Shown piece after piece: positions 21,781 to 55,693 of a DNA stretch of 64,000 nucleotides. The position numbers and the translations under genes are program-made. Source of the stretch: Raillietiella orientalis (lineage: Eukaryota); NCBI GenBank assembly GCA_036172245.1, contig JAYWIR010000004.1, forward strand, positions 1 to 64,000, written 5' to 3'. Each line of letters opens with the position of its first letter. Position 1 is the stretch's first letter. The notes below the pieces were generated by a model. The model saw only the letters and a list, made by a program, of their open reading frames with translations. It did not search any database and had not been told where the DNA came from.

Positions 21781-21871
21781 CGAGTGGACGTGTGTTTCCT
21801 TCGCTCCCGAGTGAGTCGACAGGAAGCGGTTTTTTGTTGTGTTGTTTAGTGTGGAACATCGTTGGTGTCCG

Positions 21872-38404: not shown

Positions 38405-39402
38405 TGGTTGGATCTATATCAACAAGCAGTATAAAGATGCCCAACTCATGATAATGGTCAATGGCATCTATGCTCTTTTCACCTACTATATGGTGCGGTA
38501 TCGTAGGTTGAACCAAGTGTTTATCCCAGATGATGACTGGCGCCAGACATCCCAACGCTACTACCTAACCCCAGTCCAAGCCAAGCACCCGTCCCGTCTA
38601 AACCCTGTATCAAGTCAGGCACTGATCTCGAAACAAATGGCGGTGAATTGTATGGTCCTTATTATAGCTACCAAGGTTTCATGGTGGCTCACGAATCACC
38701 ATACTGGTGTGCGCAAGAATTAAAAGGGGGCAGGTTTCCCTTTAAAAGTGTGGAGGTCGTTATTTGGCCGAGTCTCCTTATCAAAGGGACTGGATGCCAC
38801 TCACACTTTAGGGCACTTCCGCAGTACGCTCAGAGTTTTGGAGCTGGTGGGGTTTACTAGGATGATTGAGTCGATGCCTTTATCAGTCACTGGTCCTCCG
38901 TCAAAGCCTATATCGATATCCCAAGATGCTCTCCTCCGATTCCATTCCCCTCCTGTCGGTACTCAAGCATGCTGCGGCGTACCAGGCATTTAAGAGGCTT
39001 GTTAACTGGGCCCAAGCAGCCAATTTCCCAGAGATAGAGAACATGGCTTTTCTGGGGGAAGCATATGCGAACATTATGCTGAACTCTATCTACTACCATA
39101 TAGGAGCTCGGTACATTACAGGGCAGCCACGAAGCAATTTCAACGACACCGATGCCGACTCCGTTCTTGGTCGGCTTGGATCTTTTATGTTGAATATATA
39201 CCCTAAATCCACCTTCTGCATGTCACCACACATTTCTCGCAATGTGGTTGAGTCGAAAGAGGACTTTTCCCCTGAGTGGGATGCGTTTTGCACGAAGGTC
39301 CCGAAGGAAATATCGCTGAAGCCAATTGAAGCCACCACACCACAGTTAGCCGAAGAAAGAGTTACCCTTTTGCGTACCCAGCTCTATGATGCGATGAGTT
39401 AG
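38405..39402 (+). pseudogene. Endogenous viral element: putative negative-strand RNA virus nucleoprotein, qinvirus-like, frameshifted
   Basis: Abrupt drop in GC; consecutive frames give ATKVSWWLTNHHTG, HTLGHFRSTL, DALLRFHSPPVGT, YHIGARYITG, LGSF..YPKSTFCMSPH, which I recall as qin-like N motifs. Confidence 0.5.
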
Positions 39403-39659
39403 TTTCAAGTTAGGCATTCCCGTCCCGCTCCGGTACGACTCGCTGGGGGTAGTGCCTGCAGCTGAGCCAGTCGAGTAACCAATGATCTCAGACGTGTGCA
39501 ATGCATATTGGAATATATGGTGTGACCTATTCTGTGAAATTGCCATAAAAGTGTTTATTTTGTTGCAAATATGTTTTGATTTGATGCTCACTTTTACACA
39601 TTAGTACAATACGCAGGTGGACGTAAAGAGGTGGTTTGCGATGGCGTGGCTGTTATTCA

Positions 39660-40366
39660 CTACTGCAAAGGGACTCCTTCGGTGGGGAGAAGAACTTGGT
39701 GACTCCGGGGGACTTGCGTCTGCGAACTGCGTTCGGTGCGGGATGACGGAGTCCATCCCGCACCTACTTCTGGACTGCGGTGTTCTACGAGGACCCTGGC
39801 GGAGGCTGGCAACAGCAATCTTGCATCCCATGGACACCGCAAGAGACTTGCTCCGACGATACTTCACGCCAACCGGGCTATCTTCAAGCGCAAGGATTGC
39901 AACCATCGGTTGCGTACGCGCAAGTTTCAGTCCGTCAGGCGCTGGTATTCAACGGGCAGCACCAAGAGGTAGTTGGCAAAGCATCCTCCTACATGCAATC
40001 GGTAGCCAGATGGCCTCATTTGACAGAGACAAGGGAACTATGCGGCATACAGCACTGCAGCGACCTACCCGGTGATCCTTGCCCCACACTCCATGATTTT
40101 TTTTTTTTGCCCACTTCCGTCCCCTTAGTCTCCGGAACATTCTAGGTGCTCTCTATATGAATCCCCTGAGTACAGAGCCTCACCAAAGACCCGTCACTAT
40201 TCCCTCCCGTTTGTTTGTTTTCTTATTTCCTACTCCTACCATGTTGCGAGCGGTTTGTTTACCAGGCCTACGTGCAGGTAACTCCCTATGTTCTCTGTAG
40301 TTGCGCTGGTTGGGGACATGGTTCCTGACCGGTTTATTTTAAATAAACGGCCCGGCGTGACCGGGT
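39660..40366 (+). mobile_element. Family C ORF2 C-terminus plus 3' UTR
   Basis: CVRCGMTESIPHLLLDC; similar to the reverse complement of 10665-11535; terminal hairpin 40342-40366. Confidence 0.85.
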
Positions 40367-41050
40367 GATAAACTTCAATCTAGTGTGGACGTGTTTTTCC
40401 GTCGCTCTCGTCTCTAGGCTGTCATCCGCTTCATCTTGGTGTCGTGCATTCCGACGACGATGTCGACCCAACGAGAAGCTACTGATGTTGGAGGACCAGC
40501 GTGAGGATCTGCAACCGCGGAACCGACGGCCGCCTCGTCTTCGTCTGCCTCGCCAGCGGCGAGTAGCTTTGCGGACATTTCTGCAGCTGCAGCCGTCAAA
40601 GGAGGATCCCTAGACGAGGCGAAGTTGCGAGCTTACGTAGCCCAGGGCTATAGCCCCGCACTCCGTTATCAGATGAGTGGGTTTCTTTCTACTCGCGACG
40701 GGGGTCAATTCAACGACGAATTGACCCACATAGGCGTGCGGGAGGAAGACCTGAAAGAGCTCCTGCTCTTCGTGCGGAACGCCATGCAACCAGCCGCAGT
40801 CCTAGCAGCATTTAGAGGAACATTCGGAAGGACCTGGCCAGGGTCCTCAATAGGATGCACCCGCCTTCAGCTGGCGGTGATCCCTTTCCTTCCCTCCGAA
40901 GCCTTTTTATTTATTTATTTTTTTATTTTTCTTTTCTTTCTTTTCCCATTTCCCTTCGCTACCGAGTTGAGTTCCGTCGGTCTGCATACCGACGACCTGG
41001 CAGGCCAGATGTTATGTTAGCCGTAATGGGGCCTTGTACAACAAATGTAT
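40367..41050 (+). mobile_element. Family D 5' end/ORF1 start (to about 40755) fused to an ORF2 tail/3' UTR fragment
   Basis: RAYVAQGYSPALRYQMSGFLSTRDG matches the 9586..10476 ORF; GTGATCCCTTTCC 3' UTR motif near 40877. Confidence 0.75.
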
Positions 41051-41075
41051 AGATGAGTGATGTATAGAATAGTAA

Positions 41076-41388
41076 CCACATTTGCAAAATACCTATACCT
41101 CAAGCAAGGAGCCATTTATTTACAGAATTGCAAGAAAGCTGATGTTACCCAGTTGTACAATTGGGAATCCATCATCGTCATGGACCTTATACGTGACAAT
41201 AGAGAGTGCAGTACGTGTTCATCAAAAGCCTCAAGAACGGAATAATATTTGAACCGAAGTACCAAGGATCCATGGAGTGTGTTCAGACACCGGACGTTAT
41301 CGTCATGGCTAACTGGGACCCTGACTACCAAAAGATGTCTTCCGATAGATGGAAACTCATCAACATCACTTCCTCCAACAGAAAATAA
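41076..41388 (+). pseudogene. rep: CRESS virus Rep helicase C-terminal fragment (unit 1)
   Basis: FAKYLYLKQGAIY, LKNGIIFEPKY, IVMANWDPD..SSDRW. Confidence 0.85.
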
Positions 41389-41439
41389 ACCTTCACTGTT
41401 GACGCTGATGACATCACCCTTTGTTAAAACAAACACAAG

Positions 41440-41830
41440 TCCTAATAAAGACTAATTCCTCCAGCCTTCCTTCATTGTCTAAATTGTCGCATGTTTCCCC
41501 TAAACAACCAATACCTCCCATGAATTCCATACATAGGAGTTCCTCGAACCAATCTACCCTTACTTGGACACACACCAGACTGACACCTTCCCTTAAAATC
41601 ATCAGGAATATCTTGACCAAGACATGTGCTTCATTATATAAAATGCCCGCACATTGTCCGCAAAGACAACTCTTCGCTCCTTCTAGTCTCCACCCAGATA
41701 GAACGAATGGCCTGTTCGCTCTTTCCGTTCTCATACTCTAACTTCCTATGCAAACAGCACGGCCAATAATAACTTATTCCCTTCACACCAAAGTATCTCC
41801 TCGACACTGCTTCTTTCTCATTATAAAACT
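41440..41830 (-). pseudogene. Diverged CRESS capsid C-terminal fragment (unit 1)
   Basis: RRYFGVKGISYY..RSIWVET aligns by eye with ARYFGVRGIRVY..RCPWIDS of the 42524..43450 capsid. Confidence 0.55.
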
Positions 41831-41852
41831 TGATAATAAATAATAACTGAAT

Positions 41853-42512
41853 AATCACACTACCTTCTACTCGAAAAACATTAATTTTGTAAAAGAATGC
41901 TTCCGATTCGCCAGAAGCAGGGCACACCCGAACCCCTTGGCCAAATTACAACCTAAAAGTTGGCAGATGGACATCCTAAAAATTATACGACTAAAACCCG
42001 AGTTACGCAAAATATATTGGTACTATGACCCTGTTGGAGGAACTGGCAAGACAACCATGGCCAAATTCCTGTACTTGAAAAAGGGCGCCATTTACATGCA
42101 TTCATGTAAAAAAGCCGACGCTGCCCATATATATAATGGAGAAAGAATAATCATTGTAGACCTCACCCGTGACAATCAAGAACACGTCCAGTACGGGTTC
42201 ATCGAAACACTCAAGAACGGAATCATCTTCGATTCCAAATACCAAGGATCCATAAAGTATTTCCAACCTCCCCACATCATATGCTTCAGTAACTGGGAGC
42301 CGAATTACAAGATGTCTAGTGATAGGTGGATTGTCAGAAATATTTCCAAGTCCGATGCAGCTCGACTCACAGATTGCATGATGGACGAAGGTGTCATTCT
42401 CCCTTGCGCTTGCGCTTCACGCCCTAGTACAGCGCAAGCCCACGACTCGCCTGACTCCTCCTCTCCCACATTGTCACCGTCCTCCCCCTTTTTTTATGAA
42501 ATACAAGATTAA
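41853..42512 (+). pseudogene. rep: CRESS Rep C-terminal half (SF3 helicase), open frame (unit 2)
   Basis: Walker A WYYDPVGGTGKTT, Walker B IIVDL, LKNG..SKY, motif C HIICFSN, SSDRW. Confidence 0.92.
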
Positions 42513-42523
42513 ATATATTTTCT

Positions 42524-43450
42524 CTATTTATATAATCTAACATCCTTCAAGTGCTTGAACTGGATATAGTACGTTCTCGTTATCCTATAGATTGGATAAC
42601 CTTTTTTCAAGCGACCGTCCTTTGGACATACGCCGGACTGACAAGCCTCCTTCAAATCGTCTGGTATATCCACTCCAGACATGTGCTTCAACACATGCAC
42701 ACGATTAAAATGTACGTAACTTTTCGTTTCAGGATCCAGGTTTACTCCTTGAGAACTATCAATCCAAGGGCAACGAACAAAACGAAATAATTGACCTCCG
42801 TATGTTTGCACAGTCTTTCGCAAATAAGCTCGCGAATACACACGAATACCTCGAACACCAAAGTATCGAGCAAAACAACCAGAAGTCTCTCCGTGACCAG
42901 ATATCGTATCCTCTAGTTTGATATACGGCATTCCTGCCAAATTCTCAAAATACTCTCCCTGGTTCGCCGACTGATACAGCAACACATTTCGATACGACAC
43001 CTTCATTCCGAACTCCTCCCCCATGTTTCCTATTGTCAGACCTAAAGACATCGGTTCTATCTTCATAGCACATCCCTTCACTCTAACATATCGATAGAAC
43101 TTCGCGAAAACATCCAAATTAGCTATTCGCAAAAGATCTTCCACCGACATCACGGTTTCGTCATACGTGAACATCCAAGAACAATTAACATGGTCTCCAT
43201 CAGCAGTCCTCAACGAACTGTAATGGACCGCATCTGCCAAAACATCCCGAGCTACCACACGCGTTGTACGAGACAACTTATAGCGAGGTGAACAATACAA
43301 CTTCGCACGGCGACGACGAACATTCCAACGACGACGGCGCTTTAACGTACTATATCCCCCTCTTCGACGAGACAAACGACGATGCTTCACCAAGAACGAT
43401 GATCCTGCACGCTTCCTCTTCCGAGAGCGAGCAGCGCGAGGTGATGTCAT
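42524..43450 (-). CDS. cap: CRESS virus capsid protein, intact 308-aa ORF (unit 2)
   Basis: Extremely Arg/Lys-rich N-terminus; ambisense to Rep; adjacent to an origin hairpin; homologous to four other decayed copies. Confidence 0.85.
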   Translation of the reverse strand: MTSPRAARSRKRKRAGSSFLVKHRRLSRRRGGYSTLKRRRRWNVRRRRAKLYCSPRYKLSRTTRVVARDVLADAVHYSSLRTADGDHVNCSWMFTYDETVMSVEDLLRIANLDVFAKFYRYVRVKGCAMKIEPMSLGLTIGNMGEEFGMKVSYRNVLLYQSANQGEYFENLAGMPYIKLEDTISGHGETSGCFARYFGVRGIRVYSRAYLRKTVQTYGGQLFRFVRCPWIDSSQGVNLDPETKSYVHFNRVHVLKHMSGVDIPDDLKEACQSGVCPKDGRLKKGYPIYRITRTYYIQFKHLKDVRLYK

Positions 43451-43696
43451 TCCGCTGCTTGACAGCGTACTGGCGACCTACACTAACCCCCCTCCCTTTT
43501 TCAAGTCCGCTGGTGGGACATGCCCACCCGACTTTATCAGCCTTCCACGAGGTCGGGTTACGCCACGCACTACCCGCGTGGACAGCAACAGCTTGTTCCG
43601 CATTCCTAATTCTTCCACGATTGCGGACATCAACCAGCTACTAAAAATATCCACTTACAACATATCGGAATTTCCCAAGGTTTTACGTTGCCAGCG

Positions 43697-43735
43697 AAAT
43701 GCAATCTGGGTAATACTATTTACCAGATTGCATTT
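43697..43735 (-). promoter_or_regulatory. Rolling-circle origin stem-loop with nonanucleotide TAGTATTAC
   Basis: 13-bp perfect stem AAATGCAATCTGG/CCAGATTGCATTT; loop contains GTAATACTA (43710-43718); TATAAAT at 43753-43759 upstream of Rep. Confidence 0.93.
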
Positions 43736-43819
43736 TATGCGTAGTTACGCAGTATAAATACAAACTACACACAACATTAACCTAGTGCTACTTACACAGA
43801 ATTACAGTGAACATACAAG

Positions 43820-44086
43820 ATGCCTTACGCACTCTTCTTCAATTGGTGTTTCACACTATGCAATTTCTCCGAAGACGAACTCAAGAATATCAAAGATTGG
43901 TGCAGATGCAACTGCTACTTCGCATGCATCGGCAAAGAAACAGCATCTACAGGAACACCGCACCTACAGGGCTACTTCCAACTAAAAGAGGCTAGAACGT
44001 TACCAGGACTCAAACGCAAAACCTTCCGGAAGTGCCACCTCGAGAAAGCTCGAGGATCATCACGGAGCAACTTAAGGTACTGCACA
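43820..44086 (+). pseudogene. rep: CRESS Rep N-terminal HUH endonuclease half (unit 2), truncated at motif III
   Basis: WCFTLCNF, TPHLQGY, NLRYCT. Confidence 0.92.
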
Positions 44087-44134
44087 AACTCTTGCATTAT
44101 CTTACCATAATAGAAATAAAATGGTCCCTTAATT

Positions 44135-44392
44135 TGCAAAGACCATGTAGGAAGACAGGCCTCTAGGAGGCTGTCGGCAACGTGGAAATGGGTTGATGGT
44201 GACCAGAAGATTTCCTTGAGTGAAGTAATTATTGATGCAACTCAGAGCAAAAAAGTGGTTTCGACAATCCGGAATCTCCAGCGGGAGTCCGCATGGCTTT
44301 CCCTCATTAATAAGCATCCCGACCAGGGGAAAGCCACATTTAGTCACGCTCAACCACCTGATGTGCAAAACCATCCTTCCAATTACGTTTAG
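44135..44392 (+). mobile_element. Fragment of an RLE-type non-LTR retrotransposon (Utopia/NeSL-like), post-RT region
   Basis: My translation: ..ASRRLSATWKW...WLSLINKHPDQGKA..HPSNY, resembling the ASRRL...KPDQGK...SNHF region I recall for Utopia/NeSL proteins. Confidence 0.5.
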
Positions 44393-44502
44393 ATGCTACC
44401 CGCTTCAGTAAATGAAATCTGTTTTTTCCAAATCCAAGCATGCTCATCCTGACTACAGTCTTATTACATCAGTTCACTTCATAATGATGGTTTTTGTTTT
44501 CG

Positions 44503-45140
44503 AATAAACGTCCCGGCGCAAACTGGTAAGGAACGATCACGCAGCACGGACGTGCGCTGTTGTGGATCTCTGAGCGTGTTTTTAGTTTGCCTGCACTGCC
44601 GGTTCTGCCTTGCATCGGCGAGAAATTTTGCCTCGGTCGTCAACGCCGAGGCAGCCAACGGAGCACCCCACAATGCAGAGCTGCGGGCATATGTAGTTCT
44701 AGGCTACAAGTCCGCTCTCTGCTGCACGGTCAGTGCCTTGAGAACGAATGGAGTGGGTGACAAACGCCGCGACGAGCTTGACGGCATCAGGGTGCGGGAG
44801 GATGACCATCTGGCTGTGATGCCCGTAAGTGCACTTGGACATTAGGAGGTGCACTGCAAAAAAGCAGCTCTCGTCTAGCGCCTGCTACGCACCCCGCTGA
44901 ACATCCGCGGGAAAATCGTCCCCTCGGCCATGGACCAGTCGTTCTTTGTCCAATTATCCGCCATCCGTGCGAAAACTTCCGATCGCGAGCTCCTGAGCGC
45001 GCTGGGGGCATTCGCTACGGTGCACGCTCTGTGAAGAATAGCAAACCTAATCAAAAGGATCGCATCCCTCCACAGCGAACTCGCGACGGCGCGAATCATC
45101 AGGGCGGACCGGTGGCTCTTGTCTTCGGAGCTCAACTACG
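44503..45140 (+). mobile_element. Terminal hairpin followed by a degenerate family D-like 5' end/ORF1
   Basis: ELRAYVVLGYKSAL, VREDDHLAVMPV, RLLRTPLNIRGK similar to ORF 9586..10476. Confidence 0.75.
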
Positions 45141-45145
45141 AGGTT

Positions 45146-45991
45146 GACGAATAAAATCTTTCGTCTCTTATTCCTTTAGACAAAAAATAAGTTCCAGTAC
45201 ACTGCATGCCGAATAATTCTTCAACAATAATCCACTCTTTGAAATCGAACCATCTCCTTCCCAAGGTGACGGAATCTCAAATCCAGCAATATGTCATATC
45301 AAATGCGCCTGCAAACTATACATTTGTTCATTTCCTCAGCATTGTCTCCGTCCATCCATCCACACTCTATTTTCCAAGTTACAGTACCTCCATGCATAAG
45401 GTGATTCAAGTTCATACGCGACTTTACAAACGCCCAGCAACCGATTTCTATCCTGTTGTAGAAACAATTTGCCTTGCCATTGAAAATTTCGATAGTCCTC
45501 CAAGCATTTTCATATTTTTGTGTCAAAGCAGCTACCTCATTCTCACACCAAAGATACCCCCTCCCCCATGAGTCAGTATCAAGTGCCTGCTCTCCTTATA
45601 ATCCACATCGTCTCTTGAGTCAGAAAATGTGTAATCCAAAGATTCAAACGTATACCGTATTCCAGCAAGCTTCACCTGCTGGAACACCCTCCACATTCCA
45701 TCCAAAGTAAGCATCCTCAACCAGTCCATTATGTTGTATCACTTAACAACTACGTATAAGTGCCAGCTGTTTCACTACCCCGCGTTACAAAAAACTACAA
45801 ACCAAGCACTTGAGACCGTAAAGCCCTCTTCGTAAACCCATGGCTAAAACCACTACGCCCAAAAAACAACCTCCTCCTAAACAAACGCGTACATTCCTCC
45901 TCCGTTGACGTATTAACCATAGACACCGTACAACTATGCTTTCCATTTGGTCCTTTTCCAACACGTTTCGCTTCAACTGGCGGACTGGCAT
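45146..45991 (-). pseudogene. cap: CRESS capsid, diverged and frameshifted (unit 3)
   Basis: Arg-rich N-terminus, RVFQQVKLAGIRY, IFGVR, CGWMD, C-terminal KGIRDERFY. Confidence 0.7.
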
Positions 45992-46144
45992 AGTCTCCTC
46001 CCTTCACACAGTCCTGCGCCTACTGATTAAACAGCCATAAAACAAACAATATATGCCTACCCCATCTTCCCGTACCACTCCCACAACTGAGCACTTTCCC
46101 ACCCTTCCACGTGCTACCCGTTATCCGAGAAGTGCAATGCACGC

Positions 46145-46214
46145 TGAAAATGTTTCAAGGTGAAAATGTTTCAAGAACTTTGACACCTCGGCGGCTGGGT
46201 AACACTAACCAGTC
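46145..46214 (-). promoter_or_regulatory. Second origin region: iteron-like direct repeat plus hairpin with TAGTGTTAC
   Basis: TGAAAATGTTTCAAG twice (46145-46159, 46161-46175); CTGG-GTAACACTAA-CCAG near 46195-46212. Confidence 0.65.
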
Positions 46215-46501
46215 AACTCAAAAAACATAAATATCATGAGCTACGGTTAACTAAACAGTCTGACCACCTTAGTGTTACCATCCTAAGCATCCGAAGCATG
46301 CCACAAAGAACCACGCAAAGTACTGGTGCTTCACCCCAAATAATAACATAGATGAAGAGTACCAAACCACCAGAAAGTGGTTTCGACTGGAATCTTCATT
46401 CGCCATAATAGGCAAACAAGGAGAATCCAACACACCTCATCTCCAAGGTTACACCTTACAGCTACACCACCCAAAAACAATTCTTTAGTTGAAGTATGTA
46501 G

Positions 46502-47380
46502 ATGCCTTACGCCGTTGTTAACTGGTGCCTTACGCTTAACAACTACACGCAAGATGACGTCATCAGCATCAAAACCTGCTGCCACTTGCACTACTCCTAC
46601 GCAGTTATCGCCAAGGAGCAAGGATCCTCAGGAACTCCACATCTCCAGGGTTACCTTCAACTTACCGATGCATGCACATTGCCTCAAATGCAACGAATTC
46701 CCTTTCAAAGGGCCCACCTGGAAAAAGCTAACGGCAGTCCTGAAAGCAACCTCAGGTACTGCACGAAAGATAAAAACGCCTGGATCTATGGAGCCATCAC
46801 AGAAGACCACGGCCAGGTTCGTATGAGAGACATGTTATTAACAACCATTTTCACAAACACCTATCTTACATATCTTTCTTTCTTTTAGATTCTCCAACTC
46901 ATCAATGCTCCAAAAACATCAACTTCATTAAGGAATGCTTTCGGGTTCTCCGAAACGAGACTGCCCCGAATCCCATGGCTAGATTACGTTTACGCCAATG
47001 GCAAATGGATCTGCTTGATCTACTGCGAAAGGATCCCACCCCCAAAACATCTACTGGCTGAAAGACTCGAAAGGAAACGCCGGAAAAACTACATTCGCTA
47101 GATTTTTATTTTTGAGAAAAACAGCAATTTACATGCAGTCTTGTAAAAAGGCTGACGCTGCTCATTTGTACAATGAGGAGCCCATCATTGTTGTAGATTT
47201 CAACAGAGACAACAAAGAGCTTGTCCAGTATGGATACATAGAAACCCTCAAGAATGAGATCCTTTTCGATCCAAAATATCAGGGGAGCAGCAAATACTAC
47301 TCCACTCCTCACGTCCTTGTCTTTGCAAACTGGAGCCAGACTTCTCCAAAGTAAGTCAAGACAGATGGGTTGTCATAGAT
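46502..47380 (+). pseudogene. rep: CRESS Rep with intron 46817-46888 (unit 3), disrupted
   Basis: WCLTLNNY, TPHLQGY, YCTK; GNAGKTT; LKNE..PKY, HVLVFANW. Confidence 0.9.
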
Positions 47381-47479
47381 CTCAACACCTTGCTGAGGAA
47401 GACTTCTTGGACCATGGATGATTCAGGCAGTCTACTCTCCTGGTGCAAGCCTTCATAGCTCCTTCTGAAGACAATTATG

Positions 47480-48400
47480 ATGAATGATACGAAAACAGGG
47501 TACAGGTTCCTCCAATACGTCCAATTAACTCCCGTAGATACTCAATCTGATCCGGAGCGTTAAATCTACTACATCATCCAGCATCGCAATAATTTAAGGA
47601 CACATCATCCCCATACGAAACACTTTTCGCAGTATACGCAGTACATCTAATAAACCTGCGTGGTACCCTTGCTCGGCCTCGCCGATATCGAGAATGCCTT
47701 CGATTCGCTAGATCAAACAATGCTGCTAAGGATCCTGAGGAGAATGGGTTTCCAAACGATGTTTTTAGCGAAAGCACAAGCAGGAGACGCTGGACGAAAT
47801 AACTTCCAACATCAGGATCAACGGCACTGAGTGGAAATCAGATGGGAAGAGAATTCCACCAGGGAAATGCCCTAGTCTGATGTTCCTCGCCCTCTACCTG
47901 GACGCGGCGTCGTCCTATGTGGCAAAGGTTTAAGGGTCTCACATTGGAAGGGGAAAACACCCACCTGGCCTATGCCGATGACGAGCTCTTCGTCAAGGCG
48001 GATGAGTAGGATCACAGAGCGTTCTTGGACATCGCTGAAGCCATGGAATACGGACGCGGTTTAAAGATGAACCCAACTAAATCGTGCCTCTTCATAACAG
48101 AAACACCGCTCGCACGGTTCAGAACCATGGACGAAGCCAAATACCTCGGTGTCCATATCGAAGAAAAGGAAGCAGTATTGCCACTCAAATGGAAGGACAT
48201 CGAGCAGAAACTAAGGAAACCGGCAAATACCAGGGGAAGGATTTCTCTCTAAATGAGGTCAACCTTTGGAGCAGTGCTCACACTCAAGTTCGTGTTCATG
48301 GTGGCGTTCTATAACATCCCAGAATGACCAAATACCTAGACAACGACCAGAGTTTCCTCATGTGTAACGGGAAAAAATTCCGTATGAAGACGAAGTGCCT
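47480..48400 (+). mobile_element. Old, AT-richer L1/Tx1-like RT fragment
   Basis: AFDSLDQTMLLRILRRMGF, AYADD, GLKMNPTKS, KYLGV. Confidence 0.75.
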
Positions 48401-48429
48401 ATCATCCGCGAGCGGAAGGCGGTACCAAT

Positions 48430-49415
48430 ATGCCCAAGATCGTATACGCCGTCCAGCTCCAAGATATCAGGCAACTCGTCAGGTACGCAAACGCTGGTGT
48501 CGACTGCACTGCAGCTATGCTATTCTCACCAAAGAAACTGGCAGTCAAAACAGCCCTCACATCCCAAGGATACCTGCAGCTGCATGAACCTAGAACCCTT
48601 TCACAACTCAAACGACCACCATTTCAACAAGTGCATATGGAAACTGACAAGGGCAAGCCACAAAGCAACAAAGACTGCTGTTCCAAACAGAACTCGAACC
48701 CATGGGCATATGGCTCCCTTGACAACGATGAGACCGATAATGAAAAAGGTACAAGTCTCATATTTACTTAATCCCATTCCCACAGATATTGCAACTCATA
48801 AAATCCGGCCATGATGACAAGTACCTCCTAGAACATCACACGAGATTCTACTCCAAAAACATTAACCTGATTACAGAATGCGCTTCCGACTCCACCGAGA
48901 TACAAGACATCCCAACCCCATGGCAGGACTCCGTCTTCGTGAATGGAAACTTACAATTCTCCATACACGGAAGAAACCACCAAACCCACGCAACATTATT
49001 TGGATTAAAAGACGAATGCGGCAACAGAATAAAAACAACCTTCGCAAAATCTCTCTACTTAAAAGGATCAGCCATATACCTACAATCTTGCAAGAAAGCA
49101 GACGCTGCCCATCTCTACAATGGAGAGAAAATTATACTCGTCGACCTTACGAAAGACAACAGAATTTGCTCAATGCAGATTCATCGAGTTCCTCAAGAAT
49201 CATCCTCGATCCCAAATACCAGGTATCTGTCGAGTATTTCACAACGCCACATAATTGTATTCGCAAACTGGGACCCAGACCACAAAAAGATGACTACAGA
49301 TCGTTGGCAAATCATCAACATAACAAACCACAACAGGAAAAAAAACATCTTTCACAATGGACGAAGATGGAGCCATTGTACCCTTTCGCAAAGATACCAC
49401 TGTAACAACCGATGA
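48430..49415 (+). pseudogene. rep: CRESS Rep with probable intron 48749-48785 (unit 4), disrupted
   Basis: QGYLQLHEPRTL, KTTFAKSLYLK, IILVDL, HIIVFANWDPD..TDRW. Confidence 0.85.
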
Positions 49416-49429
49416 GAAATAAATTTTAT

Positions 49430-49610
49430 TTATTGATACCCTAACTCGTTGTCTCTCATTCCTTTAAACATAAAATAAAACTTCCTCGGAATTTTATCAT
49501 CCGGAGAACCCTTCTTTAGTTCTCCCACCATTGGATGCAAAACAACATTCGCATTTGGAACTGGCCGTACGTGATCCACGATCCCATGCGACCGTCGGCC
49601 TGATGTCCGC
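49430..49610 (-). pseudogene. cap: CRESS capsid extreme C-terminus (unit 4)
   Basis: GELKKG...RKFYFMFKGMRD aligns with GRLKKG...RTYYIQFKHLKD; AATAAA on both strands at 49418-49434. Confidence 0.65.
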
Positions 49611-49914
49611 CCTGACACTAAGGCAGTCGCAATAACTGGACCTGACGTGGAGACGAGTCCAGTTCGAACAAAAAATCAAGATAATCCTCAAGAGCACAAA
49701 AATGTGGGTCAAGGAGCTGACCACGAACATCATGAACATCCCGCTCTTTGTAAGCGTGCCGTGGGTCAGAGAAATGGCTCCAGAGAACAAGAACCCTAAC
49801 ACTAGGAGACAACTTGGAGACTAGTGGGAACACCCACGAGTGCGTGTGCTACGACAGAAGCGCCAGCTGCAAGGAAGAACAACCTACAAGTCCCCTGAAC
49901 TCTATCAGAACTCT

Positions 49915-50751
49915 GTATCCAGATGTCAGCTTTCCTGACTTTGGACACACACCACGATGACAACCATCTTTTAGGTTATCCGGTATGTCCGCACCTGACA
50001 TGTTTCATTACATGGAAACGTCCGCATCTTGTTTGCTACTGCGTTTCCACATCTACGCTTCCACCCTCTCCACTATCCACCCAACCACACTTCACATATT
50101 TTTCCACTTCCCTATTTCCAAGCACCTCTCTCCTTACAACGTATGCCCTCGCGTACCACCGCAAACCACGTACACCGAAATACTTGCTCCAATAACCAGA
50201 CGTCTCCTCATGAGCCGATATTCGATCATTCACTTTCGTATATGCATAGCCCGCCATACTTCCGAAATGATCCCCTTGCGCGGGACTCTGATACTTCAAG
50301 GCATTTCGGTATGACACCTTCATTCCAAATTCCTGACATATTCCCTATCATTAAATCTAACGACAACGGCTCCACCTTTACAGCCATTCCTTTCAATTTC
50401 ACGTAACGGTAATATCTCGCGAACTGCTCCAAATTCAATGCTCTCAACAAATCATACAAGTTCGCTTCTTCCTTATACATGAACATCCAAGAACAATTTA
50501 CAGGATCATTGTCCGCCGTCCTCTGCGATGCATAATGTGGCCCTTGCGACTCCCCATCGCTCCACCACTCGTAATGCACGCCCATATCTCCAACGCAGGT
50601 TTCTCAATATTCCCCACCTACGTCTACGTCTATTAAATCTACGGCGCCACTTGTAAGTGCTGTATCCCAATCTGGTCAGTCTTCGCCTCTTCGCCGCGTA
50701 ATTTCCTGCACGCTTACGCTTTCGATACGATGACGAGCATGGTGCTACCAT
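49915..50751 (-). pseudogene. cap: CRESS capsid, frameshifted, near full length (unit 5)
   Basis: RKRKRAG..RRRR N-terminus, VNCSWMFMY, RYYRYVKLKGMA, KVSYRN, YFGVRG; close to the unit 2 capsid. Confidence 0.85.
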
Positions 50752-51008
50752 TCGGCTACTAGATAGCCTACTGCCATGTTTTTCCCTTCCCCCTCCCTTT
50801 CATACTCCTGCTGGAGGGCTACGCCCACCCGACTATTCTAGCTTCTCACGAGGTCGGGTTTCACCAGGCACGGACATCTGGAAAGCTTATCGCTTTTCCG
50901 CGTATCAAAGTCTTTCGCGTGCGCGGACAAAAGCCAGATACTAAAAATAAATATGCTTACATAACAATTTCCCATGGTGTCGGATGATTACTGCGCAATA
51001 ATACTGAC

Positions 51009-51026
51009 CTGGGTAATACTGACCAG
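51009..51026 (-). promoter_or_regulatory. Third origin hairpin (decayed) with CAGTATTAC
   Basis: CTGG-GTAATACTGA-CCAG, positionally equivalent to 43697-43735. Confidence 0.75.
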
Positions 51027-51096
51027 ATTGAGCTACTACGCACTTACGGCGTACATAAACCAACACTGAGCATCCGAACCAGTCTTACCTCGGGTG

Positions 51097-51978
51097 ACGC
51101 CATACGCACTATTTTTTAACTGGTGTCTGACACTCTGTAACTACTCAGAAGACTTCAAGGCCATCAAGCAATGGTGTCGATGCAACTGCACATTTGACTG
51201 CATTGGCAAAGAAACGGCCGAGACAGGAACGCCACACCTCCAAGGCTATTTTCAACTGAAAGAGCCGAGAACACTTCCCGGTTTGCACCGTAAACCCTTT
51301 CATAAGTGCCATCTTGAGAAGACCAAAGGAAGCGCACAGAGCAACATTAGGTATTGCACCAAGCAGGACAAGGATGCATGGGTATACGGCGCCTTAAATG
51401 AACAAGCCAAACCATACGAGGAACACGTAAGATAACTACGTAGTTTCATTTTTCTCAAGGTCATATATTTCAGATCCTACAACTTGTAGAAAACGGCGCC
51501 GATGAACTGTATATCCTCAAACATCACACCTGCTTCTATGCAAAAAACATAAACTTTATAAAAGGATGCTTCAGGCTATCACGAACCAGGACACACCCAA
51601 ATCCACTCGCCAACCTCCAACTCAAAGAGTGGCAACTAAAAATCTTCGATATCATCCGACACGAACCCCACACAAGAGAAATCTACTGGGTCTATGATCC
51701 AGTAGGAAACGCCGTAAAAACTACCATGGCAAAATTCCTCTACCTCAAAAAAAAACGCAATCTACATATGCACAGCTGCAGGAAAGCCGACGCAGCTCAT
51801 ATATACAACGGCGAACGTATAGTGGTCGACTTCACCAAATATAATCAGGAGCACGTACCATACGGCTTCATAGAGTCTTTGAAAAATGGAATCACCTTCG
51901 ATTCCAAATACCAAGGATCTATTAAATATTTTCAGCCACCACATACCATTGTCTTCGCAAATTGGGAGCCGGACAAGA
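51097..51978 (+). pseudogene. rep: CRESS Rep with intron 51427-51473 (unit 5), frameshift in an A-run near 51750
   Basis: WCLTLCNY, TPHLQGY, YCTK; GTAAGA...TTTCAG intron joins PYEEH to ILQLVENG in frame; YDPVGNAVKTT, LKNG..SKY, HTIVFANW. Confidence 0.92.
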
Positions 51979-52429
51979 ATGGAATTTATCATAATCATTT
52001 GGTATTCAGTTTATGTTGTGTGTGTGAGGATGATGATATGATGTGTATAGGAATAAATAGAATTATGGTTATGGTACCGAAGCTCGTAGTAAATGAAGTC
52101 AATCCCCGGGCATTGGAAGAACACTTACCCCTATGGTTATGTGTTATAATAAACTGAATGATTAAAATGAATCTCAATTAGACAATATTGGAAATGTATT
52201 GTACGTTCAAACCTTCATAACTTTTGCAAAAAGAATGATAAGAACTCACATCAAAGGCAACAAAATACACGATGCATTGAGTAAAGGTTTCTCAAGCCCT
52301 ATGCTCAGTGGAGCTTGTAGAACTTGTTCTTTCACATCATAGGAATCTGATCAACGAATCTAACGTTAAATGAATTTTCTCTAGGCGGGGTGCGGATGTT
52401 CGCACCGTATTCCTGCGTACTGGAATCAG

Positions 52430-52850
52430 AGCCAGATAGTGGTGTTTGAGCTAACTTCATTATTGGTCATTCGAAGAGCAATAATGGAGTTCCTTGATTT
52501 TTCCTGGGAAACAGTATCCAGCTTGCTACCTGGTAAATTGCAGCGCGTAAGAAGAGCTCTCGAAGTAGTAAACAAGAGACCAAACTTTGGGTTTGCAAAG
52601 GACTTGAGGGAAATCAAGTCCACAAATTACAATAACATAGGATATGCAGCAAACTCTGGGGTATCAAGTCTCGCAACAATTAATACCTAAGGGATGGATC
52701 GCCAATCCCAAGCAGAGAGTTCAGTTAGACGTAAGGATCCCCGGATAGCGGTCTACAATAGAGGATGCTGAGTGCCAAAGTTCGTGCAACAAGAAATCGA
52801 AGGAATAAAAGCTCTTTGTGAAGCCGCACATAGCTTAACCATTCCATTGC
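52430..52850 (+). pseudogene. Endogenous viral element: chuvirus-like (Jingchuvirales) nucleoprotein C-terminal part
   Basis: TSLLVIRRAIMEFLDFSW..LLPG..ALEVV..PNFGFAKDLREIKSTNYNNIGYAA then (next frame) GWIANPK..LD..I; matches my recollection of chuvirus N motifs. Confidence 0.65.
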
Positions 52851-55693
52851 TGACTTGGCGCAACAAGACCATGCACAAAGTGAGCTATGCAGGGAAACTG
52901 CCAAGGGCCACCCTCTCTCACCTAATCTCCTTCCCTCCATAATCCTATCCACTTCATGAGAAAAACAAATCTGTGCAAGGTGAAAAAAACTGCAAAATAA
53001 CTCAAGATTTGTGGAGAAAATGGCACTAAATATTAACAGTGTCTGATTGAAGGTTGTTTTTGGATCGAGAATAAGAAAACAAGATCATCCCACCGTAAGT
53101 TAGACTGGGGGAAGAGTTCAACGAAACGAACCGACGAGCCAGTTTCAGCTGGAATCACTGAGAACGAGTTTCGCTCCTACCCAAAAAACGCTGGACTAAA
53201 TATGGAATTTTTATTAATAAAAAATGTTCCAGAGGACTCAAAGGCTTTCAAGAGTACCGATGTAACGTTTTCTGAAACCTATATGAATTGGGTGATCTCT
53301 AAACTCGATACCGGAAATTGAAATCACCAACATTAAAGTGACTAATATTCGAACTTTCCTTACTTTCCAAATCCAGAAGGTTCAACTCTGGAGAGTAAAA
53401 GAACTGATTAAAAATGGTAATTCGATTTGATTATCATTCTTTTTGTTCCTGACAACTACTTTCATGAGGGCAGACTGATTAATATCAAACATTAAAACCT
53501 CATCCAGTTTCAACAGGTTTTCACAAAAGTTTCTGCAAACCCATCAGTGTATAGACTTAATATTATCAAATGCCCAGTATTAACAAAAAGAAGCATTACT
53601 ACAATACATGTTGTTTGAAAATCCTTTAAAAGTTGCACAAGAGTCACACTAATCAAAGCAAATCACAAAGCATGACGCCTTTCCATTTAGATATAATAGG
53701 ATTACTTTCATGAACCAAGCAGACTACGACAGCACCATTCCTTACTTGGGAATCTTATGCTGGAATGTGTACAAATGAAATGGAACTGAGTGCAATATGA
53801 ATTCCTACACAGAGAAGCATTATAAATCCCAACTTCATCCTTACTATTCCTCCGATGCATAGGCCGCAAGCTTTCGACACAATACACATGGCCCACATAC
53901 ACTCCAATAGTATCAACCAAAACTACCTATCTTTCTCTGTGCATGTGTCTCTTTACCAAACGATGATCAAGAAACCGATACTATTCCAAGCTACATTATC
54001 ATCAAAGCCTTATTATCATAAACATTACGTTCATTTTACACATTGCATTATTTTGTTCGTGCATTCTCAATATACATGCATTCATACAAACATTATATAA
54101 CGTACTATTGTAATAGGAATACTGAGACACTCTAATAACACTACAACAGCTGCCATAGCTCTATTTTCCAATAACAAGTCAGGAATCGAACCTCAGCTCC
54201 CTCATACCTCCTTGACTTCAGTGTTCATGGAATTTTACTTTCAACATCTCCTAAAACAGGGAGTACTGCATGCTCAAAAAATTCACATATATACAAAGCA
54301 TTCAACGCATCCATACCTTAAAGGGCAGTCTAGCTATATACATAGTGCATATAACCTTCTGATCTTAAAAATATAAAATAGCTAATATGTTAAAAAAATA
54401 AACCGGAAAAAATAAAGCCACGCAAGTTCACAACAAAAGCTGATTTCAGAGACACTAAAAGAGCCAATAATTTGTTTCACTTCTTTATACACAAAGCAAT
54501 GCAAAGTATTGAGTCATTAAGTCTAAAAGTACTTTTTTCATGGGCCAACTTCACACTGATTTGTGAATCATAATAGCTACATTAACTGCAAACAAATACA
54601 AAATGCAGTTGTTCCTCATTGCTTGCACAATGCATCCTAATCACTGCAAACATTACAATGTGCAGAGTCAAACAAAAAGTAGACACACATATGCAAAACT
54701 CAGCAAAACGTCTTCAGTCTTTATTTATGTCCCCTATTAATAAACCAAGGATAGAGGCAGAATTAAAAGTGGTAATTCTCGGTATAACTTGGGAATCACA
54801 CAAAAAATAACTAAGAACAGGAGTTTCAAACATTTTAGCTATTTAGACAAAGCATAAATTTTGTTTTCCAAATCACTCATAACCAGCTTTTAACATTAAA
54901 TAGTTTGACTTTTTACGTAATCCATTAAAACGAAAACGCCATTTGACAGTGCCTCAACCTAGAAGTAATTTTGCACAAAAATTATCAAACATCACAAGTG
55001 AATGAATGGAAGATGAATAACTACTTAATAAATAATGAACTTTACATTTACTATTCTCAAGTAAATGTCAAATGATTTTTACAATGCTTTTGCTAAAAAT
55101 ACTCTGTGCTCCCAGTTCATTGAAGTTATTCAGACAACCTATGAATCCAAAGACAAGTACAATTCAATTGTTGCTGATTTTATCTAATATTCTATGGAAA
55201 GTGAAACATTTGATCTGCCAGTACATTCAAATAATGAATTCTCCAGTGAAAACAACTGGAAAAACAAAAAAAAACTGTCAAACTGATAAACAAAACTACC
55301 AAAATAAACAAATACATCTCTAGATTAAACCCCATGAAAAATTTGGGTAAAACACAAGTTAATAGAGATTAAAAATTACGTTCTCAATAGACAAACATCA
55401 ATTAAACTTCTTGTAACTCACATTACTGATATGGAACAAAACCACAGAAATCTCTATTTGCTCTCTCTTGATTTTTTCCTAGGTTTGCAGGATATACTTT
55501 ATTCTGGCTTACACCATCCTCAGATAAAAGTCATGACTATTATGACTCACCAAAACACTGCTCTTTCAAAAAACAATCGCCTCTTCTCACTGTTTCTACC
55601 AGTTTCACAATATTCTGTAAGAAAAAGTACTTAGAATTCAAGCAATTATCAAAATACTTACTTTTGAAACAATTTACTTTAAATAATGAGGTA

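What the first reader, a model, noticed from the sequence alone, without database searches (positions are those of the whole stretch)
38405..52966. Co-oriented archive of DNA and RNA virus fragments beside the retroelement nest: candidate small-RNA immunity locus
Within about 14.5 kb there are five CRESS units, a qin-like N, a chu-like N, a Utopia/NeSL-like scrap and L1/Tx1 scraps. All Reps, both N genes and every recognised retroelement piece after 38.4 kb lie on the plus strand; capsids are minus by ambisense layout. The neighbouring USP30-like gene runs on the minus strand toward the cluster, so read-through would be antisense to them. Known: flamenco and mosquito EVE clusters have this design. 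Inference: a trap or memory locus. If the host is a nematode lineage lacking PIWI, it would have to work by another small-RNA route.
Basis: partly seen in the sequence, partly recalled or inferred. Interest (0 to 1): 0.85.

Follow-up and report, generated by a model that had tools for sequence, protein, structure and literature searches.

The report
Co-oriented cluster of captured virus fragments
A stretch of an animal chromosome holds several separately captured relatives of one small circular DNA virus, one RNA-virus gene and jumping-gene scraps, all pointing the same way beside a host gene; in mosquitoes this layout marks small-RNA antiviral memory loci, but that function is untested here.

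Summary
Between 38.4 and 52.2 kb I find six CRESS-DNA virus fragments, not five. Every Rep piece is on the + strand and every Cap piece on the - strand, and three replication-origin hairpins survive. There is also one qinvirus-like nucleoprotein pseudogene (+), three LINE pieces (+) and one RT scrap (+): 11 of 11 recognised pieces on one strand. A USP30-like gene on the - strand ends 3.5 kb to the right and points at them.

Corrections:
- The "chu-like N" could not be confirmed.
- Two N-looking ORFs (40505-41017, 44453-44842) are LINE ORF1.
- The host looks spiralian, not nematode.

New result: the CRESS units differ at saturated synonymous sites (pS 0.65-0.94) but at few non-synonymous sites (pN 0.14-0.39). 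A neutral-decay simulation gives pS = pN. All units form one clade against 32-42 outside Reps, and unit B is undecayed while the others are broken. So they are separate captures from one virus lineage, not local duplicates.

The "archive" reading is therefore supported. The small-RNA function is untested, because no sequencing run or genome was available. The design matches mosquito read-through piRNA clusters, so this is a new member of a known kind.

The parts
38394..39399 (+). Qinvirus-like putative nucleoprotein pseudogene. Three colinear pieces in three frames (two frameshifts), covering profile positions 49-340 of 375.
39661..40333 (+). LINE ORF2 3' end piece (zf-RVT region), directly downstream of the N pseudogene
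   Evidence: (zf-RVT, E 0.005). Positions 39699-40752 are 77% nt identical to 11372-10280 on the minus strand.
40334..41050 (+). LINE 5' end with the ORF1 N-terminal part. Not a viral N.
   Evidence: The 39-nt 5'-terminal motif recurs at 14753-14791 and 16536-16574.
41066..41424 (+). CRESS unit A: C-terminal part of the Rep helicase, in two frames
   Evidence: E 1e-29 to 5e-17; falls inside the window clade
41478..41870 (-). CRESS unit A: C-terminal half of Cap, in two frames
   Evidence: 31% identity to Cap B residues 180-314, E 1.5e-14
41847..42509 (+). CRESS unit B: Rep from mid-protein to the stop codon (SF3 helicase, Walker A intact). Open frame of 221 aa.
   Evidence: (PF00910)
42527..43477 (-). 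CRESS unit B: Cap, an uninterrupted 317-aa frame with an arginine-rich N-terminus
   Evidence: (Circo_capsid E 0.029, below cut-off). No word-based homologues.
43697..43735 (-). Unit B origin hairpin. Nonamer TAGTATTAC at 43710-43718, read on the minus strand.
   Evidence: 13-bp stem, -13.1 kcal/mol with DNA parameters
43811..44107 (+). CRESS unit B: Rep N-terminal HUH domain. B is one permuted genome-length unit broken inside Rep.
   Evidence: Viral_Rep 59.1 bits
44490..45150 (+). Second LINE 5' end with ORF1 N-terminal part. Not a viral N.
   Evidence: matches ORF1 of the intact LINE, E 1.5e-10; 46% identity to the 9589-10560 ORF
46199..46485 (+). CRESS unit C0: origin-like nonamer TAGTGTTAC (minus strand, 46199-46207) and a Rep N-terminal piece at 46324-46485. 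A Cap remnant at 45302-45595 on the minus strand is only a hint (E 0.2).
46502..47351 (+). CRESS unit C: near full-length Rep in three frames (at least 2 frameshifts)
   Evidence: Viral_Rep 63.7 bits
47941..48159 (+). Reverse-transcriptase scrap of another retroelement family. The broader remnant spans about 47570-48310.
   Evidence: RVT_1 E 1.3e-6. Not matched by the nest's LINE ORF2s.
48388..49412 (+). CRESS unit D: full-length but most decayed Rep (at least 3 frameshifts; HUH motif II and Walker A altered)
   Evidence: E 0.0045
49915..50799 (-). CRESS unit E: Cap, with at least 3 frameshifts and at least 1 in-frame stop
51013..51021 (-). Unit E origin nonamer CAGTATTAC in a weakened hairpin
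51070..52154 (+). CRESS unit E: Rep, HUH domain plus helicase, with at least 1 frameshift and a changed Walker A glycine
   Evidence: Viral_Rep 51.7 bits
52196..52940 (+). Unverified ORF run with six stops.
55697..56873 (-). USP30-like deubiquitinase, last three recognisable exons. The stop codon is near 55697. The first minus-strand AATAAA beyond it is at 55498-55503.

Best explanation
WHAT IT IS (shown). A germline-integrated cluster built by repeated, separate captures.
- At least four diverged members (B, C, D, E) of one CRESS-DNA virus lineage entered as DNA. Three units keep the non-transcribed origin hairpin, and B and E are genome-length permuted units. This lineage has a cyclovirus-type layout, with the origin nonamer on the Cap-sense strand.
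- One qinvirus-like N mRNA was retro-copied and lies fused upstream of a LINE 3' end.
- LINE scraps lie between them.
- All are on the + strand.

HOW IT MOST LIKELY WORKS (inferred, untested). The block lies in the 3' flank of a minus-strand USP30-like gene. I propose it is, or was, read as one minus-strand transcription unit, either read-through from that gene or a start of its own. That RNA would be antisense to Rep, N and the LINE ORFs and would be cut into piRNA-type small RNAs. Insertions in the antisense orientation would be retained, which would explain 11 of 11 pieces on one strand. In short, a uni-strand piRNA-cluster-like trap that has sampled one persistent DNA-virus lineage several times.
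For: Identity and strand of the parts.

Integration rather than contamination. The viral units are truncated, permuted and frameshifted. They are interleaved with LINE pieces of the same families as the flanking nest (77% nt identity), on one contig with an intron-bearing host gene.

Separate captures.
- Between units pS is 0.65-0.94, at or near saturation, and pN is 0.14-0.39. Third-codon-position identity is 0.37-0.52 against 0.66-0.90 at second positions.
- Twenty neutral-decay simulations at the same overall divergence give pS 0.288, pN 0.292 and aa identity 0.45.
- Cap shows the same pattern (pN/pS 0.25/0.67 and 0.34/0.74).
- All window Rep pieces form one clade: SH-aLRT 100 for 5 helicase pieces against 32 outside Reps, and 97 for 5 N-terminal pieces against 42.

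Different ages. Unit B has 0 disruptions in about 1.9 kb of coding sequence. The others have at least 12 in about 4.6 kb. The Poisson chance of 0 at that rate is about 0.007 (my arithmetic).

Orientation. 11 of 11 pieces are on + inside the cluster, against 7 on + and 6 on - for domain-bearing LINE ORFs in the nest. The piece just left of the cluster is on the minus strand (36650-36784).

Precedent.
- Mosquito core piRNA clusters are made by read-through from upstream genes, are enriched in antisense nrEVEs and are proposed to act as traps (Qu et al.; abstract and sections 7 and 11 read).
- Antisense 5'U piRNA-like RNAs come from putative EVEs of ssDNA viruses in a starfish and a sea anemone, and from a rhabdo-like N EVE in a mollusc (Waldron et al. 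2018, PMC6085071; passages read).
Against: - No expression or small-RNA data of any kind.
- Host genome and PIWI status are unknown.
- The cluster's last confirmed viral base (52154) lies 3.5 kb beyond the USP30 stop codon. A canonical minus-strand poly(A) signal sits about 200 nt after that stop. In Qu et al. most clusters start directly at the gene's transcript end.
- Minus-strand poly(A) signals inside the cluster are not depleted beyond what base composition predicts: 4 observed, 6.2 expected, and 27% of 500 simulations had as few or fewer.
- Part of the co-orientation has a mechanical cause. The N gene and the LINE 3' end next to it would be co-oriented by RT template switching, and LINE-LINE head-to-tail junctions recur elsewhere. 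The number of independent events is therefore below 11, and the p-value could be as weak as 0.03, post hoc.
- The strand-composition skew cannot separate the readings. It is strong in all CRESS parts but absent from the LINE scraps and the N gene inside the same block.
Confidence: 0.4

Rival explanations
1. Neutral graveyard. The same serial captures happened, but in a gene-poor, repeat-tolerant flank with no small-RNA role. Co-orientation would come from chance, from mechanical linkage (RT template switching, head-to-tail LINE insertion), and from the ordinary selection against sense-strand insertions, which carry poly(A) and splice signals, inside or just behind a transcribed gene.
For: - The number of independent events may be as low as six (p 0.03, post hoc).
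- The N pseudogene abuts a LINE 3' end on the same strand.
- The LINE 3'/5' composite is repeated at 11372-10280.
- There is no depletion of minus-strand poly(A) signals.
- Plus-strand poly(A) signals are enriched: 21 observed, 12.1 expected, and 1.2% of simulations reach that. This fits elements that simply keep their own signals.
Against: - At least four separate captures of one virus lineage within 11 kb are hard to get without either a local integration preference or retention by selection.
- The neighbouring LINE nest shows no strand bias.
- Every well-studied locus of this design that I read about yields piRNAs.
Confidence: 0.35
2. One complex integration event. A mixed population of related CRESS genomes was joined head-to-tail (for example by template switching during rolling-circle or recombination-dependent replication, which preserves polarity) and was inserted once. 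Co-orientation would then be automatic, and the cluster would record one co-infection rather than a series.
For: - All Rep pieces belong to one clade.
- Rep D's stop region runs straight into the Cap 3' end, with back-to-back poly(A) signals as in a natural ambisense genome.
- Unit boundaries lie inside genes, as expected from illegitimate joining.
Against: - Decay is very unequal: B has 0 disruptions in about 1.9 kb, while the rest have at least 12 in about 4.6 kb.
- LINE and RT pieces separate the CRESS blocks.
- The qin-like N cannot have been part of a DNA concatemer.
- No unit boundary lies at an origin nonamer, so Rep-mediated strand transfer at a resident origin is not supported.
Confidence: 0.12
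3. Assembly chimera or contamination. Free viral contigs were wrongly joined to host DNA.
For: - No reads could be laid on the region; no run was listed.
- GC content steps from 58% to 45% to 35% across the window.
- Unit B has no internal stop or frameshift.
Against: - Five of the six units are broken by frameshifts or truncation.
- Units are permuted and partial, and are interleaved with host LINE pieces that have 77%-identical paralogues 28 kb away on the same contig.
- Six different, 53-72% nt-identical versions of one gene in tandem is not what free circular 2-3 kb genomes assemble into.
Confidence: 0.04
4. Protein-level co-option. The uninterrupted Cap (317 aa) and Rep-helicase (221 aa) frames of unit B are kept because the host uses the proteins, for example as dominant-negative inhibitors of incoming virus. 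The rest of the cluster would be debris.
For: - Three open frames totalling 637 codons in B.
- Translated EVEs that limit a cognate virus have been reported in Aedes (PMC13643977; search listing only).
Against: - Open frames are equally expected from a recent insertion.
- Rep in B is split and permuted.
- There is no orthologue or population data to measure selection after integration.
- The constraint seen between units dates from the viral phase.
Confidence: 0.05

Closest known systems
Mosquito core piRNA clusters made by read-through transcription (Qu et al., bioRxiv 10.1101/2022.08.22.504762; abstract and sections 7 and 11 read)
   Same: - An intergenic block downstream of, and read in the direction of, a protein-coding gene.
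- Virus-derived inserts antisense to that direction, mixed with retroelement fragments.
- Proposed to act as a trap that keeps new viral inserts.
   Different: - There, the small RNAs, Pol II and chromatin marks, and RT-PCR read-through are all shown. Here none is.
- Their inserts are nrEVEs of RNA viruses. Here most are DNA-level copies of a circular ssDNA virus, with origins retained.
- Most of their clusters start at the gene's transcript end (d = 0). Here there is a gap of about 3.5 kb.
- The host here is probably a spiralian, not an insect.
Drosophila flamenco uni-strand piRNA cluster
   Same: One-strand orientation of nested mobile-element fragments, antisense to a single long precursor.
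   Different: flamenco holds LTR retroelements and has its own promoter. Neither a promoter nor a precursor is shown here.
Antisense, 5'U piRNA-like RNAs from putative EVEs outside arthropods (Waldron et al. 2018, PMC6085071; passages read)
   Same: ssDNA-virus EVEs (parvo/denso-like) in a starfish and a sea anemone, and a negative-strand RNA virus N EVE in a mollusc, give negative-sense primary-piRNA-like RNAs. These are the same virus classes and probably a similar host range.
   Different: Those were single contigs from metagenomic RNA with no locus architecture. Here the architecture is seen but no RNA.
Endogenous geminivirus arrays: GRD in Nicotiana and EGV1 in yam (Filloux et al. 2015, PMC5014472; passages read)
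   Same: Integrated HUH-Rep ssDNA virus units in the same orientation, with partial rep genes and an intergenic stem-loop nonanucleotide. EGV1 yields siRNAs.
   Different: Those are tandem repeats of one integrated unit, amplified after integration. The units here diverged under purifying selection before integration and are separated by LINE pieces.
Circovirus-like EVEs in invertebrate genomes (Dennis et al. 2018, PMC6069186; passages read)
   Same: Divergent CRESS or cyclovirus-like rep sequences embedded in invertebrate contigs.
   Different: In that screen of 307 invertebrate genomes, all newly found elements derived from rep and none had cap homology. Here three Cap remnants and three origins are kept, in a multi-unit cluster.
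Clustered IHHNV (parvovirus) EVEs in crustacean genomes (PMC12287923; search listing and start of abstract only)
   Same: Repeated endogenisation of one ssDNA virus lineage in invertebrate genomes, with both ancient and recent inserts.
   Different: A different virus family. I did not read that paper's locus structures.

Membership tests
Cressdnaviricota (CRESS-DNA virus) derived element | HUH endonuclease domain with motifs I-III | tested here: met
   Pfam Viral_Rep scores above gathering in 3 pieces and below it in 1. Motif I (CxTLxN-type), motif II (HLQG) and motif III (YCxK) are visible in alignment A2 for B, C and E, and degraded in D.
Cressdnaviricota (CRESS-DNA virus) derived element | SF3 helicase with Walker A fused to the HUH domain | tested here: met
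   PF00910 matches at 41847-42509. GxxGxGKT-type Walker A is intact in B and C and altered in D and E.
Cressdnaviricota (CRESS-DNA virus) derived element | Origin stem-loop with a conserved nonanucleotide between divergent Rep and Cap genes | tested here: met
   TAGTATTAC, CAGTATTAC and TAGTGTTAC in hairpins at 43710-43718, 51013-51021 and 46199-46207, all on the minus strand. The 8-mer on its own is not rarer than chance in 64 kb (3 found, 2.7 expected). The evidence is its position inside homologous hairpins.
Circoviridae, cyclovirus-type layout | Rep encoded on the strand complementary to the nonamer strand, plus phylogenetic placement inside the family | tested here: inconclusive
   The layout is met; the rule itself is recalled from ICTV descriptions. 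Placement was not tested, because the 42 outside Reps are unnamed metagenomic contigs at 46% identity or less over the N-terminal domain. Circo_capsid scores only E 0.029.
Qinviridae-like nucleoprotein EVE | Significant colinear similarity to the segment-2 protein of a classified qinvirus | tested here: met
   35% identity and E 5e-24 to the Wuhan insect virus 15 protein. The profile covers positions 49-340 of 375. That this protein is the nucleoprotein is the field's assumption: the source calls it hypothetical, and one UniRef member is named capsid protein.
Chuviridae nucleoprotein EVE | Significant similarity to a chuvirus N | tested here: inconclusive
   No hit for 52196-52940 in the word-based search (only proteins of 435-2000 aa were searched), the Atlas, IMG/VR, Pfam, or by profile comparison with the qin-like family (probability 0.07%). 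No chuvirus N sequence was available to compare directly.
Uni-strand piRNA cluster (flamenco or mosquito core-cluster type) | Nested mobile or viral fragments predominantly in one orientation | tested here: met
   11 of 11 recognised pieces are on +.
Uni-strand piRNA cluster (flamenco or mosquito core-cluster type) | Long single-strand precursor transcript antisense to the inserts, from a promoter or read-through | not testable with these tools
   No run was listed. Only the geometry is known: the USP30-like gene on the minus strand ends at 55697 and points at the cluster.
Uni-strand piRNA cluster (flamenco or mosquito core-cluster type) | Dense 24-31 nt, 5'U-biased, PIWI-bound small RNAs from the locus | not testable with these tools
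   No small-RNA data and no host genome.
Tandem post-integration amplification (GRD or EGV1 type array) | Units related by neutral divergence from one integrated copy | tested here: not met
   pS is 0.65-0.94 against pN 0.14-0.39 between units. The neutral simulation gives pS = pN = 0.29.

The most novel reading that the evidence does not exclude
A heritable, strand-oriented archive in a non-arthropod (probably spiralian) animal. It has sampled one persistent circular ssDNA virus lineage at least four times over a long period, including origin-bearing genome-length copies, and has also sampled an RNA virus. It is read antisense from a neighbouring housekeeping gene to make piRNA-type guides. 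This would be sequence-specific germline memory against DNA viruses built by serial acquisition at one locus. A bolder addition: the two LINE 5' ends placed directly upstream of CRESS blocks supply sense transcripts, so that the locus makes both strands.
Probability: 0.25. Interest if true: 0.8.

Novelty: new member of a known kind. Interest (0 to 1): 0.6.

Why it matters
If the block yields antisense small RNAs, the mosquito model (a read-through piRNA cluster acting as an EVE trap) would extend in two ways. It would apply to another animal superphylum. It would also apply to CRESS-DNA viruses, for which invertebrate EVEs have so far been reported mostly as isolated rep fragments (Dennis et al. 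2018, passages read).

Independently of function, the locus is a dated series of one virus lineage in one host. It holds Rep, Cap and origin from several time points, which is useful for calibrating CRESS virus evolution and for naming a host for an otherwise orphan lineage.

It also gives a clean test of whether EVE clustering reflects an integration preference or retention by selection.

Tried and rejected
1. Expression. The sequencing-run search for 42500-52499 listed none (none was listed, which does not mean none exists), so no reads could be laid.
2. Host genome. None is held. Exact look-up of 10 window ORFs (LINE ORF1 and ORF2, Cap, Rep and N forms) found none in the collection.
3. Chu-like N. 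See the membership test. My "longer" search covered only 435-2000 aa because I made the query 248 aa, so typical N proteins of about 400 aa were not examined.
4. Cap.
   - No word-based homologues.
   - AlphaFold2 single-sequence model had pLDDT 32, so no fold search was made.
   - A small Cap profile gave only E 0.2 for the supposed Cap of unit C0.
5. Atlas search of the qin-like ORF gave only scores of 0.83 or less. PDB searches gave nothing.
6. IMG/VR scans with the Rep helicase ORF or alignment A1 found no relative. Only the N-domain alignment A2 did.
7. P0001, the top hit, was dropped. It is a repeat protein matching query residues 3-47, which lie outside the N homology.
8. Rep-mediated insertion at a resident origin. 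No unit boundary lies at a nonamer.
9. Poly(A)-signal depletion on the minus strand: not significant.
10. Strand skew as evidence of transcription: ambiguous.
11. Rfam: 0 matches in the whole window.
12. Earlier findings of this scan: four look-ups, nothing returned.
13. ORFs 40505-41017 and 44453-44842 as viral N: rejected. They are LINE ORF1.
14. The supplements of the papers were not consulted. The Qu et al. cluster tables might bear on typical gene-to-cluster distances.

Full report
SETTING.
The window is eukaryotic. No whole genome is held for it.
- 1-38 kb is a GC-rich (about 58%) nest of LINE elements. ORFs carrying APE, RT or zf-RVT domains lie on both strands, 7 on + and 6 on -, out of the 114 ORFs of 130 aa or more that I scanned. 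One LINE looks intact (ORF1 21815-23473; ORF2 23574-27218).
- 53-64 kb is AT-rich host DNA (33-39% GC). It carries three UCH-domain exons on the minus strand at 55697-56873.
- The last exon finds 13 USP30-type proteins among 88 candidates: 5 bivalves, 2 cephalopods, 1 annelid, 1 nemertean, 1 thrips, 1 fungus and 2 unnamed, with no nematode. Identities are 31-54%. The exon aligns to the last residue of a 458-aa homologue, so the gene ends at about 55697.
- The host is therefore an animal, probably a spiralian, with no close relative in the database.

WHAT IS IN 38.4-53 KB. From left to right:

1. Qinvirus-like N pseudogene, 38394-39399, + strand.
   - Its largest ORF has 161 relatives at E<=0.001 in an exhaustive search. 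They are typically 370-400 aa and match at their residues about 220-340.
   - Of 10 looked up, the named ones are the segment-2 protein of Wuhan insect virus 15 (Qinviridae) and predicted proteins in ant and beetle genomes. The top hit, P0001, is a spurious repeat protein and was dropped.
   - A profile of 30 relatives hits three colinear pieces in three frames (E 3e-17, 1e-14, 1e-40) and nothing else in the window.

2. A LINE ORF2 3' piece, then a LINE 5'/ORF1 piece (39661-41050, +).
   - Positions 39699-40752 are 77% identical to 11372-10280 on the other strand.
   - The ORF at 40505-41017 and its look-alike at 44453-44842 match ORF1 of the nest's LINEs. They are not viral.

3. Six CRESS fragments.
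   - A: Rep C-terminal end (+) and Cap C-terminal half (-).
   - B: a permuted, nearly genome-length unit in the order Rep helicase part (+), complete 317-aa Cap frame (-), origin, Rep HUH domain (+). It has no frameshift or stop.
   - C0: origin plus a Rep N-terminal piece of about 55 aa.
   - C: Rep, with at least 2 frameshifts.
   - D: Rep, with at least 3 frameshifts.
   - E: Cap (-) with at least 3 frameshifts and 1 stop, origin, and Rep (+) with at least 1 frameshift.
   - A second LINE 5'/ORF1 piece (44490-45150, +) lies between B and C0.
   - An RT scrap of another family (RVT_1 E 1.3e-6, +) lies between C and D.

4. Three origin hairpins carry TAGTATTAC-type nonamers on the minus strand. 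Rep is therefore encoded opposite the nicked strand. As I recall the ICTV description, this is the cyclovirus-type layout.

5. The retained non-transcribed origins show that at least B, C0 and E entered as DNA, not as retro-copied mRNA.

6. I leave it unverified.

DUPLICATES OR SEPARATE CAPTURES?
- The units are only 53-72% identical at the nucleotide level across aligned codons (blastn 65-78%).
- Synonymous differences are at or near saturation (pS 0.65-0.94) while pN is 0.14-0.39. Third-position identity is 0.37-0.52 against 0.66-0.90 at second positions. This holds for Rep and for Cap.
- Twenty simulated neutral decays of one copy to the same overall divergence give pS 0.288, pN 0.292 and 45% amino-acid identity. 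The observed B-E identity is 72-80%.
- So the units diverged while both proteins were under purifying selection, that is, as replicating viruses before integration.
- All window Rep pieces nevertheless form one clade: SH-aLRT 100 for 5 helicase pieces against 32 outside Reps, and 97 for 5 N-domain pieces against 42. These are quick trees on short alignments, and the outside set is only what two pattern scans returned. The best outside identity is 46% over the N-terminal domain.
- Decay is unequal. B has 0 disruptions in about 1.9 kb of coding sequence. The others have at least 12 in about 4.6 kb. The Poisson chance is about 0.007 (my arithmetic).
- Taken together: one virus lineage, several captures, at different times.

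ORIENTATION.
- Eleven of eleven recognised pieces have their Rep, N or retroelement sense on +.
- If all were independent, the two-sided p is 0.001. Some are not. The N gene fused 5' of a LINE 3' end is what RT template switching produces (mechanism recalled), and the LINE 3'/5' composite recurs elsewhere.
- The co-oriented domain ends on the left at about 38 kb. The next LINE ORF1-like piece (36650-36784) is on the minus strand, and the nest is mixed.
- No unit boundary lies at an origin nonamer, so Rep-catalysed insertion into a resident origin does not explain the polarity.

FUNCTION.
- A transcript continuing from the USP30-like gene would be antisense to every Rep, to the N gene and to the LINE ORFs.
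- Qu et al. show this design for mosquito core piRNA clusters: read-through, antisense nrEVEs and a trap model.
- Waldron et al. report antisense 5'U piRNA-like RNAs from putative ssDNA-virus EVEs in a starfish and an anemone, and from an N EVE in a mollusc.
- ter Horst et al. find EVEs enriched in piRNA clusters across arthropods.
- By analogy I rate a minus-strand small-RNA precursor as the single most likely mechanism, at about 0.4. Nothing here tests it.
- Points against: there is a 3.5 kb gap, a canonical poly(A) signal lies about 200 nt after the USP30 stop, and minus-strand poly(A) signals in the cluster are not depleted beyond what composition predicts.

STRAND SKEW.
- An A+C excess on the + strand runs from 41 to 58 kb. 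It is +0.13 to +0.26 in all CRESS parts and +0.09 to +0.17 in the USP30 gene and its 3' flank. It flips sign beyond 58 kb.
- It is absent from the LINE scraps and the N gene inside the block.
- It exceeds the values of all 44 outside CRESS genomes (-0.12 to +0.12).
- It fits either C-to-T decay of the encapsidated (minus) strand or transcription-linked asymmetry. I do not count it either way.

COMPARISON AND VERDICT.
- The elements are members of Cressdnaviricota (HUH, SF3 helicase and origin all met) and of the qin-like N family (met).
- Family-level placement of the CRESS lineage is open.
- The locus has the one architectural feature of a uni-strand piRNA cluster that sequence alone can show. 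The defining RNA features could not be tested.
- It is not a GRD/EGV1-type post-integration tandem array. That test was made and not met (Filloux et al.).
- Compared with the invertebrate circovirus-like EVEs catalogued by Dennis et al. (newly found elements all rep-only), the retention of Cap and origins and the serial capture at one site are unusual.
- Verdict: a real, integrated, serially built, co-oriented multi-virus cluster. It is a new member of a known kind, with an untested but well-precedented small-RNA reading.

Noticed in passing
window 21815-27218 (+): An apparently intact LINE: a 553-aa ORF1 frame (weak zinc-knuckle hits) followed by a 1215-aa ORF2 frame with APE and RT domains. 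A possibly active source of the reverse transcriptase that copied the qin-like N mRNA.
   Followed up: partly
window 41000-58000: Strand-composition domain. The A+C excess on the + strand is +0.09 to +0.26. It is interrupted at the LINE scraps and the N gene and flips sign beyond about 58 kb. It covers CRESS parts of both coding strands and the USP30-like gene with its 2.7 kb 3' flank. It could reflect virion-strand deamination, minus-strand transcription, or both.
   Followed up: partly
window 40334-40372, 44490-44530, 14753-14791 (-), 16536-16574 (+): A conserved motif of about 39 nt marks the LINE 5' terminus. At 40333/40334, and in the paralogue at 11372-10280, it directly follows another LINE's 3' end. 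This suggests head-to-tail insertion or a self-targeting habit of this LINE family.
   Followed up: partly
window 40334-41050 and 44490-45150: Two isolated LINE 5' ends (5' UTR plus ORF1 start, normally the rarest LINE part) each sit immediately left of a CRESS block on the same strand. If their internal promoters work, they would drive sense transcription into the viral units.
   Followed up: no
window 42527-43477 (-): The 317-aa Cap frame of unit B is uninterrupted. It has no detectable homologue in the word-based search of 5.8 billion proteins, and only a sub-threshold Circo_capsid match (E 0.029).
   Followed up: partly
trees: The window clade's nearest outside relatives differ between the Rep N-terminal domain (L045, L002, L047) and the helicase domain (L018, L008, L011, and the L052 group). 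This hints at domain-level recombination in the lineage's history. Support is modest.
   Followed up: no
window 49400-49440: The stop region of Rep D runs straight into the 3' end of the Cap assigned to unit E, with back-to-back poly(A) signals as in a natural ambisense genome. Yet Rep D and Rep E are only 40-46% identical. Either a recombinant ancestor or a coincidental junction at two gene ends.
   Followed up: partly
window 41051-52200: Plus-strand poly(A) signals (AATAAA and ATTAAA) are enriched: 21 observed against 12.1 expected from a first-order Markov model, reached in 1.2% of 500 simulations. Minus-strand signals are at expectation.
   Followed up: yes
window 44108-44489 and 52155-53320: Stretches between recognised pieces with ORFs of 90-119 aa on both strands and no match in Pfam. 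Origin unknown.
   Followed up: partly
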